A stretch of DNA of 64,000 nt, from NCBI GenBank assembly GCA_012813795.1, contig GCA_012813795.1_4087.1. One strand, written 5' to 3'. The notes below the pieces were generated by a model. That model saw nothing but the letters and a program-made list of their open reading frames with translations. It was not told the origin of the DNA and did not search any database. The position numbers and the translations under genes are program-made. Positions 14,732-40,211 of the stretch are shown in pieces; position 1 is the first letter of the stretch; each line of letters begins with the position of its first letter. This DNA is from a phage.

Positions 14732-15289
14732 TTACGAAATCATTCGAAGTAGTTGCTCACGTTCAGCAGGACTTAGACCTTGTAGAATACCAGCAATACC
14801 TTGTGATTGGGTAGATGGATTCGCCGCTGGTTGTGGTGGTTCATTTGAAGCTTGTGGTGCTGCTGCTGGTTCACTTTGTGGTTTAGCTGGTGCTGGTGCT
14901 GGCTCTTCTTGATCACGATATGTGTTCATGTATTCACGAGAAGCCTGTAGTAGAGCGTTACCAACATCTTTAGGTGTGAAAGAACGGCGTTGGTTATTAC
15001 CAAGGAATTTCACATCCAATTGATTACCTTTGAAGAATTGTGCAACATCAGCATATGGAACAGAGCTTTGTGCTTTACCATATTTTTTACCAATATATCG
15101 TTTAAATTCAGCCCATAGGCGGTTAGCTTCTGCACCAACTTCCTGTGCACCTTGCTCAATCTGCCCACTACCGAACATACCTTTTACTTTCCCTTTAGCA
15201 CTATCAATAGCACTTTGAGAACGACTATAAGGACGAGCTTCATTCAGTTCATTGTCCTCATACTCAAACATTTCATTAAGTATACTCAT
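14732..15289 (-). CDS. Hypothetical protein
   Basis: 185-aa ORF, Pro/Ala/Gln-rich C-terminal region. Confidence 0.6.
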   Translation of the reverse strand: MSILNEMFEYEDNELNEARPYSRSQSAIDSAKGKVKGMFGSGQIEQGAQEVGAEANRLWAEFKRYIGKKYGKAQSSVPYADVAQFFKGNQLDVKFLGNNQRRSFTPKDVGNALLQASREYMNTYRDQEEPAPAPAKPQSEPAAAPQASNEPPQPAANPSTQSQGIAGILQGLSPAEREQLLRMIS

Positions 15290-37654: not shown

Positions 37655-38071
37655 TTATTTGATCAGAAATGTAAATTCGGGATTCATATCTCTTATTACT
37701 GAATTACGTCTTCTATCCCATACAACTTTACTAAAATACTCGGAGTCATCACATACTATCAGTATACAATTCCTAAGAGAACTCGTTGTGTAAGTACTTA
37801 AATCATTTTCTGTAATGAAATGAACATTCCAGTTGACTTGTACTGGATAATCTCGTTTAAAAAACAAAACTACTATAGGTCTTTCAGTACTCAATGCATT
37901 AATAAATTCGATTACACTATCATAGATTTCAGTACGGATATTATTGGTTTTTATTGTACTTATGTAATTCTGTTTAATTCCGTGCTCTTCATTGATTTGA
38001 TACTCAAAAAACTTTTTAAACAATTCTTTGGTTAAATCAGATGAATTTTTAATATTCGTTGCGTTACTCAT
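37655..38071 (-). CDS. Hypothetical protein
   Basis: 138-aa ORF. Confidence 0.6.
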   Translation of the reverse strand: MSNATNIKNSSDLTKELFKKFFEYQINEEHGIKQNYISTIKTNNIRTEIYDSVIEFINALSTERPIVVLFFKRDYPVQVNWNVHFITENDLSTYTTSSLRNCILIVCDDSEYFSKVVWDRRRNSVIRDMNPEFTFLIK

Positions 38072-38791
38072 TCACTTCGTTCTCTCGTAACTCAAGAATT
38101 CGTTTCGTTATCTACGATAACTCACTCATTCATATTAATTAATATTGTATTGTACTTTTAAAGATTGACGGGATTTGTTGAGGACATTTTCATCCCCCCG
38201 CAGGGGAATGATATTAAAAAAGAACCAATGAAGGTTCTTGATTTTGACGCTGATGGCATCGGAATTTATCGAATTGCGAATTTCTCCATATTTTGGACGG
38301 TTCAAGGGTGTCCAATTTTTGGAGAACGAAAGCGGGTTGCTCTGTTTCTCTCTATCGCAGTCATATGCAACGGTCGCAGGTATTTTCATCCCCTGCACTA
38401 AAGTACTGGAACTATTCGATCAATTCAGTACTCGTTTTACTCAATTTTTGGGTGCAACTTTCCCGTAGAAAAATTGACCGCTTGTTTTAAGTAAAACTCC
38501 CTTAGCAAATCTGGTAAGGTGCGATCCTTATACATCTATCGAGGAACTCTCTGTATGCTTATCGGAGTTCTTTATTGAGCCGTGTCGCCGTGTGATCCGT
38601 GTCTTATTTCGCGTTTGTATGAATGCACTTGGATGGTACTAACGGGTTTCTTTTGCTCATCGCCTCAGTGGGAAGGCTCATCTATCCTTTACATTTTCAA
38701 GAGAAGTAGGTTCTTCTTGTCCGTTGTTAAAACGTCCACTGACATTTTCCATTACAATATAATTATAGCACAATATAAAGTATTGTCCCAA
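38072..38791. other. 720-bp non-coding island with several stem-loops (candidate structured RNA, origin or regulatory region)
   Basis: Only long stretch without a credible co-directional ORF; visibly less AT-rich than the flanks; hairpins CCCC-ccgca-GGGG near 38190 and TGGAC-ggttcaagggt-GTCCA near 38295. Confidence 0.5.
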
Positions 38792-39205
38792 TTACATATA
38801 AACTTTTTTCAATTCTTTGCTGCTTCGTTCAAATACTGTTTCAATGAACTCAATATCCTGAAGAAGCTGTAGAGTACTGGCATCTGTCTCATTGCGTGAC
38901 ACATTTCTGTACTTTTGTTCAGGGTGATTGAATACCACCTTGACTACACTATTTAGGTCTACAAAATTTGACGTTTTTTTCGTATAGGAAGCCTGAAGCT
39001 TAATATACTTCCCATTATCTTGTAGATTAGTTTTATGAATTAGTTCTTCAATACCTGTAAGATGTAAATAACTATCTTCTTCTTTGACGAATGTAATAGT
39101 CAACAGTACTGTCTTTTCGTCTCCCATGTCAGAGATATTTTTCACAGCACTAACAATTTCCAAGTTTGAAAAATCTAAATCTTTAAGCATTACACATATT
39201 TCCAC
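38792..39205 (-). CDS. Hypothetical protein
   Basis: 137-aa ORF. Confidence 0.6.
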   Translation of the reverse strand: MEICVMLKDLDFSNLEIVSAVKNISDMGDEKTVLLTITFVKEEDSYLHLTGIEELIHKTNLQDNGKYIKLQASYTKKTSNFVDLNSVVKVVFNHPEQKYRNVSRNETDASTLQLLQDIEFIETVFERSSKELKKVYM

Positions 39206-39599: not shown

Positions 39600-40211
39600 T
39601 TACTCATGTTTATCCAACAGCTTTTGTGCCTTTTTTAATGCTTTCATGTGTCGCCCGTACTCACGAACATGCCACAGATGATCGTTATCCCATAGCTCTT
39701 GACGCAATTTACGTTCTTCGATCATTTCTGGTGTAGGACGTTTACTTTCCTTCTCAATCTTATTGAAATAACGATTCATATGTTCTTCAAGTAGATTTAG
39801 GTTTTTGACTTTCTCAAGGAATTCATCAACCGTTTCAGTTTTATTTGAACGCATTTGGTTGCATCTTGAGCACATTGTATTAAAGTTGGACTCCAAATCA
39901 GCACCACCTTTAGATGCAAGATGATTATGATCTACAGTCATCATAACTTCATAAAGACCACATACTGCATACACATTTAAATGCGGTTTACCATATACCG
40001 GATCACTACAGTTAGAACGTTCGATTCGAACTTCTGTAGCCTCGATGCCACAAGCAATGCACTTACAATTCTTAACGAATGTTAGTACTTTTTGTGGAAA
40101 GTATCTGAAAGTAATACCATTATAAGTATAACGTTTCATTTTGGTACTAGTATGATTGAGTTCATCTAGTAAACTCAATTTGGTTACATAATAAACATGA
40201 TATTTAGACAT
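39600..40211 (-). CDS. HNH endonuclease (free-standing, homing-endonuclease-like)
   Basis: His-Me finger MTVDHNHLASKGGADLESNFNTMCSRCNQ plus upstream CxxC pair. Confidence 0.8.
   Translation of the reverse strand: MSKYHVYYVTKLSLLDELNHTSTKMKRYTYNGITFRYFPQKVLTFVKNCKCIACGIEATEVRIERSNCSDPVYGKPHLNVYAVCGLYEVMMTVDHNHLASKGGADLESNFNTMCSRCNQMRSNKTETVDEFLEKVKNLNLLEEHMNRYFNKIEKESKRPTPEMIEERKLRQELWDNDHLWHVREYGRHMKALKKAQKLLDKHE

What the first reader, a model, noticed from the sequence alone, without database searches (positions are those of the whole stretch)
38072..38791. 720-bp non-coding island inside a densely packed early-gene region
Genes elsewhere on this strand are separated by 0-100 nt or overlap, yet here 720 bp has no convincing co-directional ORF. 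The island is visibly less AT-rich than the flanks and holds several stem-loops. It could encode a structured RNA, be a replication origin or packaging site, or be the remnant of a mobile insertion; an HNH endonuclease gene sits 800 bp away.
Basis: seen in the sequence. Interest (0 to 1): 0.55.

Follow-up and report, generated by a model that had tools for sequence, protein, structure and literature searches.

The report
New large structured phage RNA gene
The "empty" 720 bp holds a gene for a roughly 0.5-0.6 kb, heavily knotted non-coding RNA that matches no Rfam family, is kept in four old copies in every RaK2-like jumbo phage, and sits beside the integrase in some enterobacterial prophages; its function is unknown.

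Summary
Window 38072-38791 is a real gene-free gap, richer in GC than its flanks. It is not empty: on the minus strand it carries a promoter (TGGGACA-N15-TGCTATAAT, 38790-38762) followed by a structured RNA of about 540-590 nt (about 38755 to 38165).

- **Family size:** I collected 68 distinct full-length relatives, plus a divergent subfamily and bacterial copies.
- **Structure:** 79 base pairs in 20 helices are 97.5% paired, against 37-44% when partners are slid. 59 pairs show compensatory changes, and four helices are pseudoknots.
- **Not coding:** no ORF is conserved.
- **Known families:** no Rfam 15 family, tRNA or tmRNA matches.
- **Copies:** phage A4, 99.4% identical to the window, has four paralogs at 65, 126, 206 and 321 kb, all on one strand. 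These paralogs predate the genera of RaK2-like jumbo phages.
- **Bacterial copies:** single copies lie next to integrases in enterobacterial prophages and islands.
- **Promoter:** the promoter class is shared with the phage's replication genes.
- **3' tail:** it ends in a short repeat (R2) that always copies the 3' strand of the last hairpin (R1).

The best reading is a new class of large phage RNA that acts in trans, in the manner of GOLLD and ROOL. Replication-origin and cis-regulatory readings remain possible. The HNH / mobile-remnant idea is not supported.

The parts
38784..38790 (-). -35-like element TGGGACA of the RNA promoter
   Evidence: Read from the sequence. The motif TG[AG][AG]AC-N13-16-TGnTAnAnT occurs 16 times on this strand of the A4 genome and once on the other. 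46 of 68 family members match a strict pattern and the rest carry close variants. It is the same class as the TGAAACG 'divergent RpoD-like' promoter described for CBB and GAP32 (PMC5259590).
38762..38770 (-). Extended -10 element TGCTATAAT
   Evidence: Promoter scan. It is conserved in all aligned copies.
38165..38755 (-). The non-coding RNA gene. The predicted start is about 38755 (+/-3). A short form would end in the U-run at 38216; the long form includes the 3' motif down to 38165.
   Evidence: nhmmer match 38747->38161 to the family profile, E = 1e-130. Alignment A1 of 68 copies. Structure counts. The ends are inferred, not mapped.
38498..38709 (-). 5' domain (RNA positions 44-255). It contains a hairpin with the invariant loop GAAAAUGUA, a hairpin after GAUGAG, the long-range helix UGAGC/GCUCA, the helix CCGU/ACGG, a 3-bp pseudoknot ACA/UGU, the hairpin GAA../..UUC whose loop may pair with GCU before AAGGGAG, and the hairpin UAAGG/CCUUA.
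   Evidence: Helices 1-10 are 87-100% paired, and most pairs show changes on both sides. Invariant positions are listed.
38435..38497 (-). Variable insertion closed by GUUU/AAA. It holds one copy of a recurrent module (..UACnnGnAAGUUGCnCCCAAAAAUUGA).
   Evidence: Helix 11 (4 of 4 pairs covary). The module is seen at two insertion sites in alignment A1.
38403..38432 (-). Hairpin GUACUGAAUUG/UAGUUCCAGUAC. Its loop AUCGAAU (38420-38414) forms a pseudoknot with AUUCGAU (38274-38268).
   Evidence: Helices 12 and 13. The 7-bp pseudoknot is 99.8% paired, and all 7 pairs have compensatory changes.
38275..38375 (-). Conserved pseudoknotted core GACCGUUGC...GAUAGAGAGAAACAGAGCAACCCGCUUUCG...UCGCA. The helix GUUGC/GCAAC crosses UGCGA/UCGCA and GAGAG/CUUUC. 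The UCU/AGA stem carries a second variable module.
   Evidence: Helices 15-18 are 96.6-100% paired, with 13 of 18 pairs showing changes on both sides. This is the densest cluster of invariant bases. The same core is kept in the divergent type-2 subfamily.
38244..38260 (-). Last hairpin: strand X (GAUG) pairs with repeat R1 (CGUCAA).
   Evidence: X/R1 is GAYG/CGUC in most copies, UUCG/CGAA in type 2, and GA(C)AG/CUUC in RaK2-type copies.
38216..38238 (-). Intrinsic-terminator-like hairpin AGAACC-UUCAUU-GGUUCU plus a U-run
   Evidence: Terminator scan. The stem covaries in 5 of 6 pairs, but it has letters in only about 23-36 of the 68 copies (helix 19). It is absent from paralog families C and D.
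38165..38206 (-). 3' motif: CCCC-UGCG-GGGGGG hairpin, AUGAAAAUGUCCUCAACAAAU, then repeat R2 (CCCGUCAA, 38172-38165).
   Evidence: The motif occurs only at the four RNA loci in the whole A4 genome. The C/G stem shows no compensatory change, only C->U (helix 20). The R2 5-mer equals the R1 5-mer in 56 of 57 evaluable copies, across three sequence variants.

Best explanation
The island is an independent gene for a large, highly pseudoknotted non-coding RNA of about 540-590 nt on the minus strand.

**Shown**
- The gene has its own promoter, TGGGACA-N15-TGCTATAAT. This is the class that also precedes the phage's DNA polymerase region, ssb, primase, topoisomerase and late sigma factor genes.
- The transcript region folds into at least 20 helices supported by comparison, including four pseudoknots. 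About 80 nucleotides are invariant, concentrated in junctions and loops.
- The family has four anciently diverged paralogs per RaK2-like jumbo phage genome. Single copies lie next to integrase genes in enterobacterial prophages and islands.
- No reading frame is conserved.
- The RNA ends in a tail in which a short repeat (R2) always copies the 3' strand (R1) of the last hairpin. One upstream strand (X) can therefore pair with either R1 or R2.

**Inferred**
- Host RNA polymerase transcribes the gene during infection, probably with middle timing.
- The folded RNA acts in trans as a structured particle: an RNA-protein complex, a ribozyme-scale RNA, or a self-assembling RNA in the manner of GOLLD and ROOL. 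It does not act on its neighbouring genes.
- The X:R1 / X:R2 alternative is either a conformational switch or an intermolecular contact.
- The biochemical activity is unknown.
For: **Location and promoter.** Gap and strand. Promoter and terminator-like hairpin on the minus strand. The promoter is conserved in all copies and shared with replication and late sigma factor genes.

**Conservation.** The DNA is 68-80% conserved in 72 jumbo-phage records, with 2-5 places per record. A4 has four paralogs, each in an intergenic gap of 650-900 nt, all on one strand. A pattern scan and nhmmer gave 68 distinct full-length copies.

**Structure.**
- 97.5% of 4949 cells are paired, against 78.6% in shuffles (0 of 500 reach the observed value) and 37-44% with slid partners.
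- 59 of 79 pairs have changes on both sides.
- 914 cells are doubly changed, against 72-139 in the slid controls.
- The covariation score is 0.484, against 0.05-0.09.

**Not coding.** There is no codon periodicity, the frame is not kept, and stops are frequent. Pfam finds nothing.

**Age of the paralogs.** They fall into orthologous clusters shared by different phage genera.

**Trans rather than cis action.**
- Downstream genes differ between copies.
- Copy B faces minus-strand genes.
- Prophage copies are convergent with cI and sit beside tyrosine or serine integrases.

**R1 = R2 rule.**
Against: - **No expression data.** There is none for any member, and the 5' and 3' ends are predicted only.
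- **No partner or activity identified.** 'Acts in trans' rests on the lack of a consistent cis target, which is negative evidence.
- **Copy number.** Four individually conserved, dispersed, co-oriented copies would be easier to explain by a position-dependent (cis) role.
- **Terminator position.** In about half of the copies a terminator-like hairpin lies upstream of the conserved 3' motif. If that hairpin terminates efficiently, the motif would not be part of the RNA.
- **C/G hairpin.** It is conserved as sequence rather than as pairing, which could mean recognition at the DNA level.
- **Circularity.** The helices were found on the same alignment that was used to count them. The slid-partner control addresses this only in part.
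Confidence: 0.6

Rival explanations
1. The four loci are replication origins. A transcript from a middle-type promoter forms a persistent RNA-DNA hybrid near the C-run/G-run of the 3' motif and primes leading-strand synthesis, as at T4 oriF/oriG or ColE1 (RNA II). The RNA fold would control hybrid formation.
For: - There are four dispersed loci (65, 126, 206 and 321 kb of 355 kb), all on one strand.
- The promoter class is shared with replication genes.
- These phages carry T4-like replication and recombination genes, including UvsW and RNase H (PMC5259590; A4 annotation).
- The invariant G5-6 run preceded by a C-run is conserved as sequence, not as pairing.
- The paralogs are kept individually for a long time, as expected for a position-dependent element.
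- From my own knowledge, not tested here: T4 origins use middle promoters, and ColE1 RNA II is about 550 nt and needs a G-run/C-run contact.
Against: - Single copies lie beside integrases in prophages and small islands, and are convergent with cI.
- There is no match in 72,556 plasmids.
- About 80 invariant bases and four pseudoknots go far beyond what known primer RNAs need.
- A terminator-like hairpin precedes the G-run in about half of the copies.
- The type-2 subfamily keeps the same core in other T4-like phage contigs, next to structural genes.
Confidence: 0.15
2. The element is a cis-acting transcription control element. In this reading it is a giant leader, sensor or antitermination RNA (put-like). 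The X:R1 / X:R2 switch would decide whether polymerase reads on into the downstream genes, or antisense into cI in prophages.
For: - The order promoter, structured RNA, terminator-like hairpin, co-directional gene holds for A4 copy A (window). Copies C and D are also co-directional with their downstream genes but lack the terminator hairpin.
- There are mutually exclusive pairings near the 3' end.
- In prophages, read-through would be antisense to the CI repressor gene.
- Conserved junction nucleotides are typical of ligand-binding RNAs.
Against: - R2 lies downstream of the terminator-like hairpin, so X:R2 cannot form in time to affect that hairpin.
- The hairpin is missing in about half of the copies.
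- The downstream genes are unrelated between copies, and a separate promoter-like sequence follows the motif.
- Copy B faces minus-strand genes.
- At about 450 nt before the terminator, it is far larger than any known leader.
Confidence: 0.12
3. The island is a decayed mobile insertion, such as an intron, homing-endonuclease cassette or MITE, related to the HNH gene 800 nt away.
For: - An HNH gene lies two genes upstream.
- The short direct repeats R1 and R2 flank about 75 nt that contains an inverted repeat.
- There are multiple copies per genome.
Against: - The element sits at orthologous positions across genera, and its paralogs are older than those genera.
- No group I or group II intron or other Rfam model matches.
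- It does not interrupt a gene.
- It shows strong purifying selection with compensatory changes.
- R1 and R2 change in parallel across subfamilies. This indicates selection, not a relic duplication.
- Whether the other three A4 loci have an HNH gene nearby was not checked.
Confidence: 0.03
4. The island encodes one or more small proteins, such as the annotated A4_511 / 121Q_516 on the plus strand or the four small minus-strand ORFs annotated in WPEC3.
For: Annotators called small ORFs here. An antisense ORF of at least 40 aa overlaps the conserved core in 72% of copies.
Against: - Entropy by codon position is 0.74 / 0.90 / 0.74, so there is no excess at the third position.
- The length of the aligned segment modulo 3 is 0, 1 and 2 in 31, 20 and 17 copies.
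- At least one in-frame stop occurs in 52 of 68 copies.
- Pfam finds no family.
- The open frame is explained by nucleotide conservation of the RNA core.
Confidence: 0.01

Closest known systems
GOLLD and ROOL RNAs (large 'ornate' RNAs of phages and prophages; Rfam families)
   Same: Both are non-coding RNAs of about 500-800 nt with many helices, pseudoknots and highly conserved junctions. Both are encoded by phages and prophages, have their own promoters, and have no known function. From the literature, both form RNA-only multimers (PMC12286853, listed).
   Different: - There is no sequence or structure match to either covariance model, in any family member, even at permissive thresholds.
- The hosts differ: Enterobacterales and their jumbo phages rather than Bacillota and lake or rumen samples.
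- Each genome carries four ancient paralogs.
- It is not next to tRNA genes in A4.
- Multimer formation was not tested.
ColE1 RNA II and T4 oriF/oriG origin transcripts
   Same: Both involve a long transcript (about 550 nt for RNA II) from a constitutive or middle promoter, with a G-run/C-run near the 3' end. There are several such loci per T4-type genome. This comparison rests on my own knowledge.
   Different: The sequence and structure conservation here is far stronger. The element also occurs in prophages next to integrases, is absent from PLSDB plasmids, and has a terminator-like hairpin upstream of the G-run in half of the copies.
The four ncRNAs of Pseudomonas jumbo phage PA5oct (RNA-seq; PMC7318152)
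   Same: PA5oct is a distant relative of the RaK2-like phages. It has four transcribed regions of 236-619 nt without ORFs, and two of them are abundant throughout infection.
   Different: The family profile shows no similarity to the region that holds ncRNA001 and ncRNA002. ncRNA003 and ncRNA004 were not tested. Homology is therefore unsupported.
HK022 put RNA and riboswitch / T-box leaders
   Same: Each is a structured RNA just downstream of a promoter and upstream of a terminator, with alternative pairings.
   Different: This RNA is 5-8 times larger, has no consistent downstream gene, and its alternative pairing lies beyond the terminator-like hairpin.

Membership tests
GOLLD RNA (Rfam) | Match to the family covariance model (sequence plus structure) | tested here: not met
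   cmscan of the whole window at gathering score gave 0 hits. The island at E<=10 gave only chance hits such as CRISPR-DR and MALAT1. Five loci with other family members at E<=0.05 gave nothing on the element.
ROOL RNA (Rfam) | Match to the family covariance model | tested here: not met
   Same searches as for GOLLD.
GOLLD/ROOL-like 'ornate large RNA' (loose kind) | At least 500 nt, non-coding, many conserved helices and pseudoknots, encoded by a phage or prophage | tested here: met
GOLLD/ROOL-like 'ornate large RNA' (loose kind) | Forms RNA-only homo-oligomers | not testable with these tools
   Needs native gels, SEC-MALS or cryo-EM.
Group I / group II intron | Covariance-model match, and insertion within a host gene with flanking exons | tested here: not met
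   No Rfam hit. The element starts after its own promoter and lies between complete ORFs.
tRNA / tmRNA | Detected by ARAGORN or Rfam | tested here: not met
   0 genes in the window. No Rfam hit.
RNase P RNA | Covariance-model match | tested here: not met
   No hit, even at E<=10. Short resemblances that I recalled (GAUAGAGAGAAAC, CUAAGGGAG) are leads from memory only.
Transcript-primed replication origin (ColE1 RNA II / T4 ori type) | Promoter of the right class upstream of the site | tested here: met
   The promoter class is shared with replication genes. Timing is inferred.
Transcript-primed replication origin (ColE1 RNA II / T4 ori type) | Persistent RNA-DNA hybrid, and a start of DNA synthesis at the site | not testable with these tools
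   Needs marker-frequency analysis, 2D gels or R-loop mapping.
Transcript-primed replication origin (ColE1 RNA II / T4 ori type) | Occurs as the replicon of plasmids (ColE1 type) | tested here: not met
   No match in 72,556 plasmid records.
Riboswitch / leader / put-type cis regulator | Consistent association with, and orientation toward, a regulated downstream gene | tested here: not met
   Downstream genes differ between copies. Copy B and the prophage copies are convergent with their neighbours.
Protein-coding gene | Conserved reading frame with a codon-position substitution pattern | tested here: not met

The most novel reading that the evidence does not exclude
This would be a previously unrecognised class of ribozyme-scale RNA. 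It is shared by lytic jumbo phages (four specialised paralogs) and temperate elements (one copy beside the integrase). Its ultra-conserved double-pseudoknot core would bind or act on a conserved cellular target. Its tail (X pairing with either R1 or R2) would be a built-in switch or an intermolecular clasp that lets copies, possibly the four paralogs, assemble into a higher-order RNA particle.
Probability: 0.25. Interest if true: 0.9.

Novelty: new variant of a known kind. Interest (0 to 1): 0.8.

Why it matters
Large, intricately folded bacterial and phage RNAs are rare; RNase P, group I and II introns, OLE, GOLLD, ROOL and raiA are the main examples. Each new class has opened biochemical questions.

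This one is unusually tractable:
- It occurs in cultivated E. coli, Klebsiella, Cronobacter, Yersinia, Serratia and Erwinia phages, such as 121Q, PBECO4, G17, RaK2 and GAP32.
- It comes with a comparative data set deep enough to give a detailed structural model.
- It shows an odd genetic pattern that constrains hypotheses: four ancient paralogs per jumbo-phage genome, and one copy beside integrases in temperate elements.

It also corrects the annotation of dozens of phage genomes. Several of the GenBank records I inspected carry spurious small ORFs in this gap, and the one RefSeq E. coli record I inspected leaves the region unannotated. If the loci turn out to be origins instead, they would be the first mapped origins in this jumbo-phage group.

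Tried and rejected
- **Known RNA families.** Rfam at gathering and permissive thresholds on the window, the island, other family members and two other A4 gaps gave nothing relevant. ARAGORN found no tRNA or tmRNA.
- **Second copy in the window.** None; the other three A4 copies lie outside it.
- **PA5oct ncRNAs.** No homology to ncRNA001 or ncRNA002 is detectable.
- **Closing helix.** RNAalifold proposed a helix between the 5' leader (CUGUUGA) and the 3' motif (UCAACA). Pair counts across 68 copies and the type-2 sequences do not support it, so I dropped it.
- **Alternative partner for ACA168.** The loop UGU60 (91% paired, mostly wobble) was rejected in favour of UGU219 (98% paired, true compensatory changes).
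- **Antisense ORF A4_511 and other small ORFs.** Rejected.
- **Small peptide starting at the AUG of GGGGGGAUGAAAAU.** The frame differs between paralogs, as read.
- **Plasmid replicon.** No plasmid match.
- **HNH or mobile-remnant origin.** Rejected on orthology and covariation.
- **Literature.** Five searches and four papers opened found no description of this RNA. The library does not hold most subscription journals, so absence is not proof.
- **Structure-aware MAFFT.** The Q-INS-i and X-INS-i modes were not installed. All alignments are sequence-based.

Full report
**1. The observation**

The window is a stretch of an Asteriusvirus jumbo phage, 99.4% identical to Escherichia phage A4 (ON286972). 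Around the finding the genes run on the minus strand. The ORFs 37655..38071 and 38792..39205 bound a 720-nt gap exactly as reported. In A4 the neighbouring genes are 0-60 nt apart or overlap. GC rises to 0.41-0.445 inside the gap, against 0.275-0.35 in the flanks. An annotated HNH endonuclease gene lies at 39600..40211.

**2. What is on the minus strand**

A simple scan finds a promoter-like site with an extended -10 (TGCTATAAT, 38770-38762). It also finds an intrinsic-terminator-like hairpin, 38239-38220, followed by a T-run. Rfam 15 matches nothing in the whole window at gathering score, and only chance hits in the island at E<=10. There is no tRNA or tmRNA.

**3. Conservation and copy number**

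- blastn of the 720 nt finds 72 jumbo-phage records: Asteriusvirus, Mimasvirus GAP32, Eneladusvirus, Alcyoneusvirus RaK2/K64-1, CBB, and Erwinia and 'Xanthomonas' phages.
- The central 500 nt are 68-80% identical, with 2-5 places per record.
- I fetched the A4 genome outside the stretch the window covers (about 100.5-164.5 kb). It holds three more copies, so A4 has four. Each lies in an intergenic gap of 650-900 nt, and all are on the same strand:

| Copy | A4 coordinates |
|---|---|
| C | 65168-65647 |
| A (the window copy) | 125678-126397 |
| B | 205622-206182 |
| D | 320997-321455 |

- There is no second copy in the window.
- A degenerate pattern for the most conserved core found 39 loci in IMG/VR, 64 in metagenomes and 9 in bacterial assemblies. 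A profile search delimited 68 distinct full-length copies among the phage, IMG/VR and metagenome loci; the nine bacterial loci were delimited separately.
- Clustering shows that the four paralogs of GAP32 fall into four different clusters, each shared with other genera. A4 and 121Q share four further clusters. The paralogs are therefore older than these genera.
- Within A4 the paralogs are 64-74% identical to one another. A4 against 121Q orthologs are 82% (copy A) and 91-94% (B, C, D).

**4. It is a structured RNA, not a protein gene**

On alignment A1 (68 sequences) I assembled helices from runs of compatible, covarying columns. I then counted them with the pair-counting tool.

| Measure | Observed | Control |
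|---|---|---|
| Cells paired (79 pairs, 20 helices) | 97.5% | 78.6% in column shuffles (0 of 500 as high); 37-44% with partners slid 1-3 columns |
| Pairs with changes on both sides | 59 of 79 | 16-28 in the slid controls |
| Doubly changed cells | 914 | 72-139 slid |
| Covariation score | 0.484 | 0.05-0.09 slid |

The structure was derived from the same alignment, so the absolute numbers flatter it. The contrast with the slid controls and the number of independent pair types are nevertheless far beyond what relatedness alone gives.

Four helices are pseudoknots:
- A 7-bp pairing between a hairpin loop (AUCGAAU, 38420-38414) and AUUCGAU (38274-38268). All seven pairs covary.
- GUUGC/GCAAC, which crosses UGCGA/UCGCA and GAGAG/CUUUC in the ultra-conserved core GACCGUUGC..GAUAGAGAGAAACAGAGCAACCCGCUUUCG.
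- A 3-bp ACA/UGU contact.
- A weaker loop-strand contact in the 5' domain.

About 80 positions are invariant in all 68 copies, mostly in junctions and loops.

No ORF is conserved. The antisense ORF that several records annotate (A4_511, 121Q_516, G17_00407) fails every coding test:
- It shows no third-position excess.
- Its frame is not kept.
- It carries stops in 52 of 68 copies.
- Pfam finds nothing.

The single sequence folds better than shuffles (z = -4.0 on the minus strand, -2.6 on the plus strand).

**5. Promoter class**

All copies are preceded by (T/C)G(G/A)(G/A)AC-N14-16-TGnTAnAAT. In A4 this motif occurs 16 times on the plus strand and once on the minus strand. The sites include those just upstream of:
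- the late sigma factor gene;
- the DNA polymerase region;
- ssb;
- primase;
- an exonuclease;
- topoisomerase II;
- RNA copies A, B and D.

Copy C has a close variant. It is the 'divergent RpoD-like' promoter (TGAAACG plus a classic -10) that Buttimer et al. found before DNA-synthesis genes in CBB and GAP32 (PMC5259590). Co-regulation with replication genes is an inference from this shared motif.

**6. The 3' end**

After the last hairpin (strand X pairing with R1, ..GAUG..CGUCAA) comes a U/C-rich linker, which in about half of the copies holds a covarying hairpin that looks like a terminator. Next come an invariant C4-6/loop/G5-6 hairpin, AUGAAAAU, and a second CGUCAA (R2).

- This motif occurs only at the four RNA loci in A4, so it belongs to the element and is not a general promoter.
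- Its C/G stem never shows a compensatory change.
- R2 tracks R1. Both are CGUCA in most copies, CGAAG in the divergent type-2 subfamily and CUUCA in RaK2-type copies. X stays complementary throughout (UGAUG or CGACG; UUUCG; GA(C)AG).
- The two 5-mers are identical in 56 of 57 evaluable copies.

So X can pair with either R1 or R2. This argues that the 3' motif is part of the RNA, and that there is either a conformational alternative or an intermolecular contact. Which of the two applies is unknown, and the 3' end itself is unmapped.

**7. Beyond jumbo phages**

- A divergent subfamily (type 2) has a different 5' domain but the same core and 3' motif. It occurs in metagenomic contigs, one of them next to a T4-type baseplate gene. 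No cultivated phage carries it.
- Full-length type-1 copies occur in bacterial assemblies: Serratia fonticola chromosome, Enterobacter chinensis, Silvania, Serratia sp., an Enterobacteriaceae isolate, and Buttiauxella and other MAGs.
- In four of them the order is chromosomal gene, integrase (tyrosine or large serine type), RNA in the same direction, then a convergent CI/S24 repressor gene. Two more have the integrase or the repressor on one side only.
- One has a serine recombinase, two ParB/RepB-like genes and the RNA.
- An E. coli island next to ffs has a copy that RefSeq leaves unannotated.
- There is none in 72,556 plasmids.

**8. Interpretation**

The points firmly established are an independent, conserved gene for a large, pseudoknotted non-coding RNA, its multi-copy organisation, and its promoter class.

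I think the most likely mode of action (about 0.6) is in trans, as a folded particle. The reasons are:
- The neighbours differ between copies.
- Copy B and the prophage copies face their neighbours.
- The same core is used by lytic jumbo phages and by temperate elements.

Two features point the other way, toward a position-dependent role: the four co-oriented, dispersed, individually conserved copies, and a G-run that is conserved as sequence. A transcript-primed origin therefore stays alive at about 0.15, and a read-through or antitermination element at about 0.12. The HNH / mobile-remnant reading (about 0.03) and the coding reading (about 0.01) are effectively excluded.

**9. Comparison with known systems, and novelty**

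The closest known things are GOLLD and ROOL, in size, ornateness, phage or prophage location and unknown function. This RNA is not a member of either family, because the covariance-model tests fail. Five full-text searches and Rfam 15 gave no prior description. The PA5oct paper reports four ncRNAs in a distant relative, but the two I could test are not detectably related. I therefore file it as a new family within the loosely defined kind 'large ornate phage RNAs'.

Noticed in passing
window ~27191 and ~8333 (minus strand): Two more instances of the promoter motif TGGGACA-N14-15-TGATATAAT inside the window (A4 137278 and 156136). They belong to the class that precedes replication genes and the RNA genes.
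   Followed up: partly
L008 15132-15648, L009 41585-42122, L012 6969-7451 (A4 65 kb, 206 kb, 321 kb): These are the three paralogs of the window RNA in the same phage genome. Copy D follows a sigma-70-family gene, as does the RaK2 copy (L006). Copy B lies between minus-strand genes (endonuclease VII and a baseplate hub operon).
   Followed up: yes
L118-L125 and L126 (bacterial assemblies): Full-length copies lie beside tyrosine or large serine integrases and are convergent with CI-type repressor genes in enterobacterial prophages. One mini-island has a serine recombinase plus two ParB/RepB-like genes. An E. coli island next to ffs has a copy in a 1.4-kb unannotated gap.
   Followed up: partly
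L063, L069, L075, L094, L095, L102, L103, L114 (metagenome contigs): A divergent 'type 2' subfamily has a different 5' domain, the same core and 3' motif, and an extra covarying hairpin after R2. One locus lies next to a T4-type baseplate gene. No cultivated phage carries it.
   Followed up: partly
A1 columns ~455-490 and ~628-665 (window 38435-38497 and about 38290-38325): A recurrent module of about 35 nt (consensus UUUUGUACAAUAUAGAUCCGUCCAAAAUUUGA) is inserted at up to two different sites of the RNA, and is present or absent depending on the copy.
   Followed up: no
L008 ~15095-15135 (A4 copy C) and several metagenome copies: In some paralog families a small hairpin followed by a U-run sits directly after the promoter, before the conserved RNA body. 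It looks like an attenuator or a 5' protective hairpin.
   Followed up: no
L010 16274-18585 (A4 230.3-232.6 kb): The large terminase subunit is annotated as two CDS separated by 275 nt, possibly an intron or a frameshift. No Rfam intron model matches.
   Followed up: partly
L007 4139-6138 (A4): A 2-kb stretch without any annotated gene lies in an otherwise dense array of small genes. Rfam has no hit.
   Followed up: partly
window 38072-38164 (minus strand): The remaining 90 nt of the gap, downstream of R2, is AT-rich. It holds a small hairpin (GUUAUC-GUA-GAUAAC) and probably the promoter and 5' UTR of gene 38071..37655. In copy D a perfect TTGACA-N17-TAGAAT follows the motif.
   Followed up: no
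window copy compared with L027 (121Q): Copy A evolves faster than its paralogs: 82% identity between A4 and 121Q, against 91-94% for copies B, C and D.
   Followed up: no
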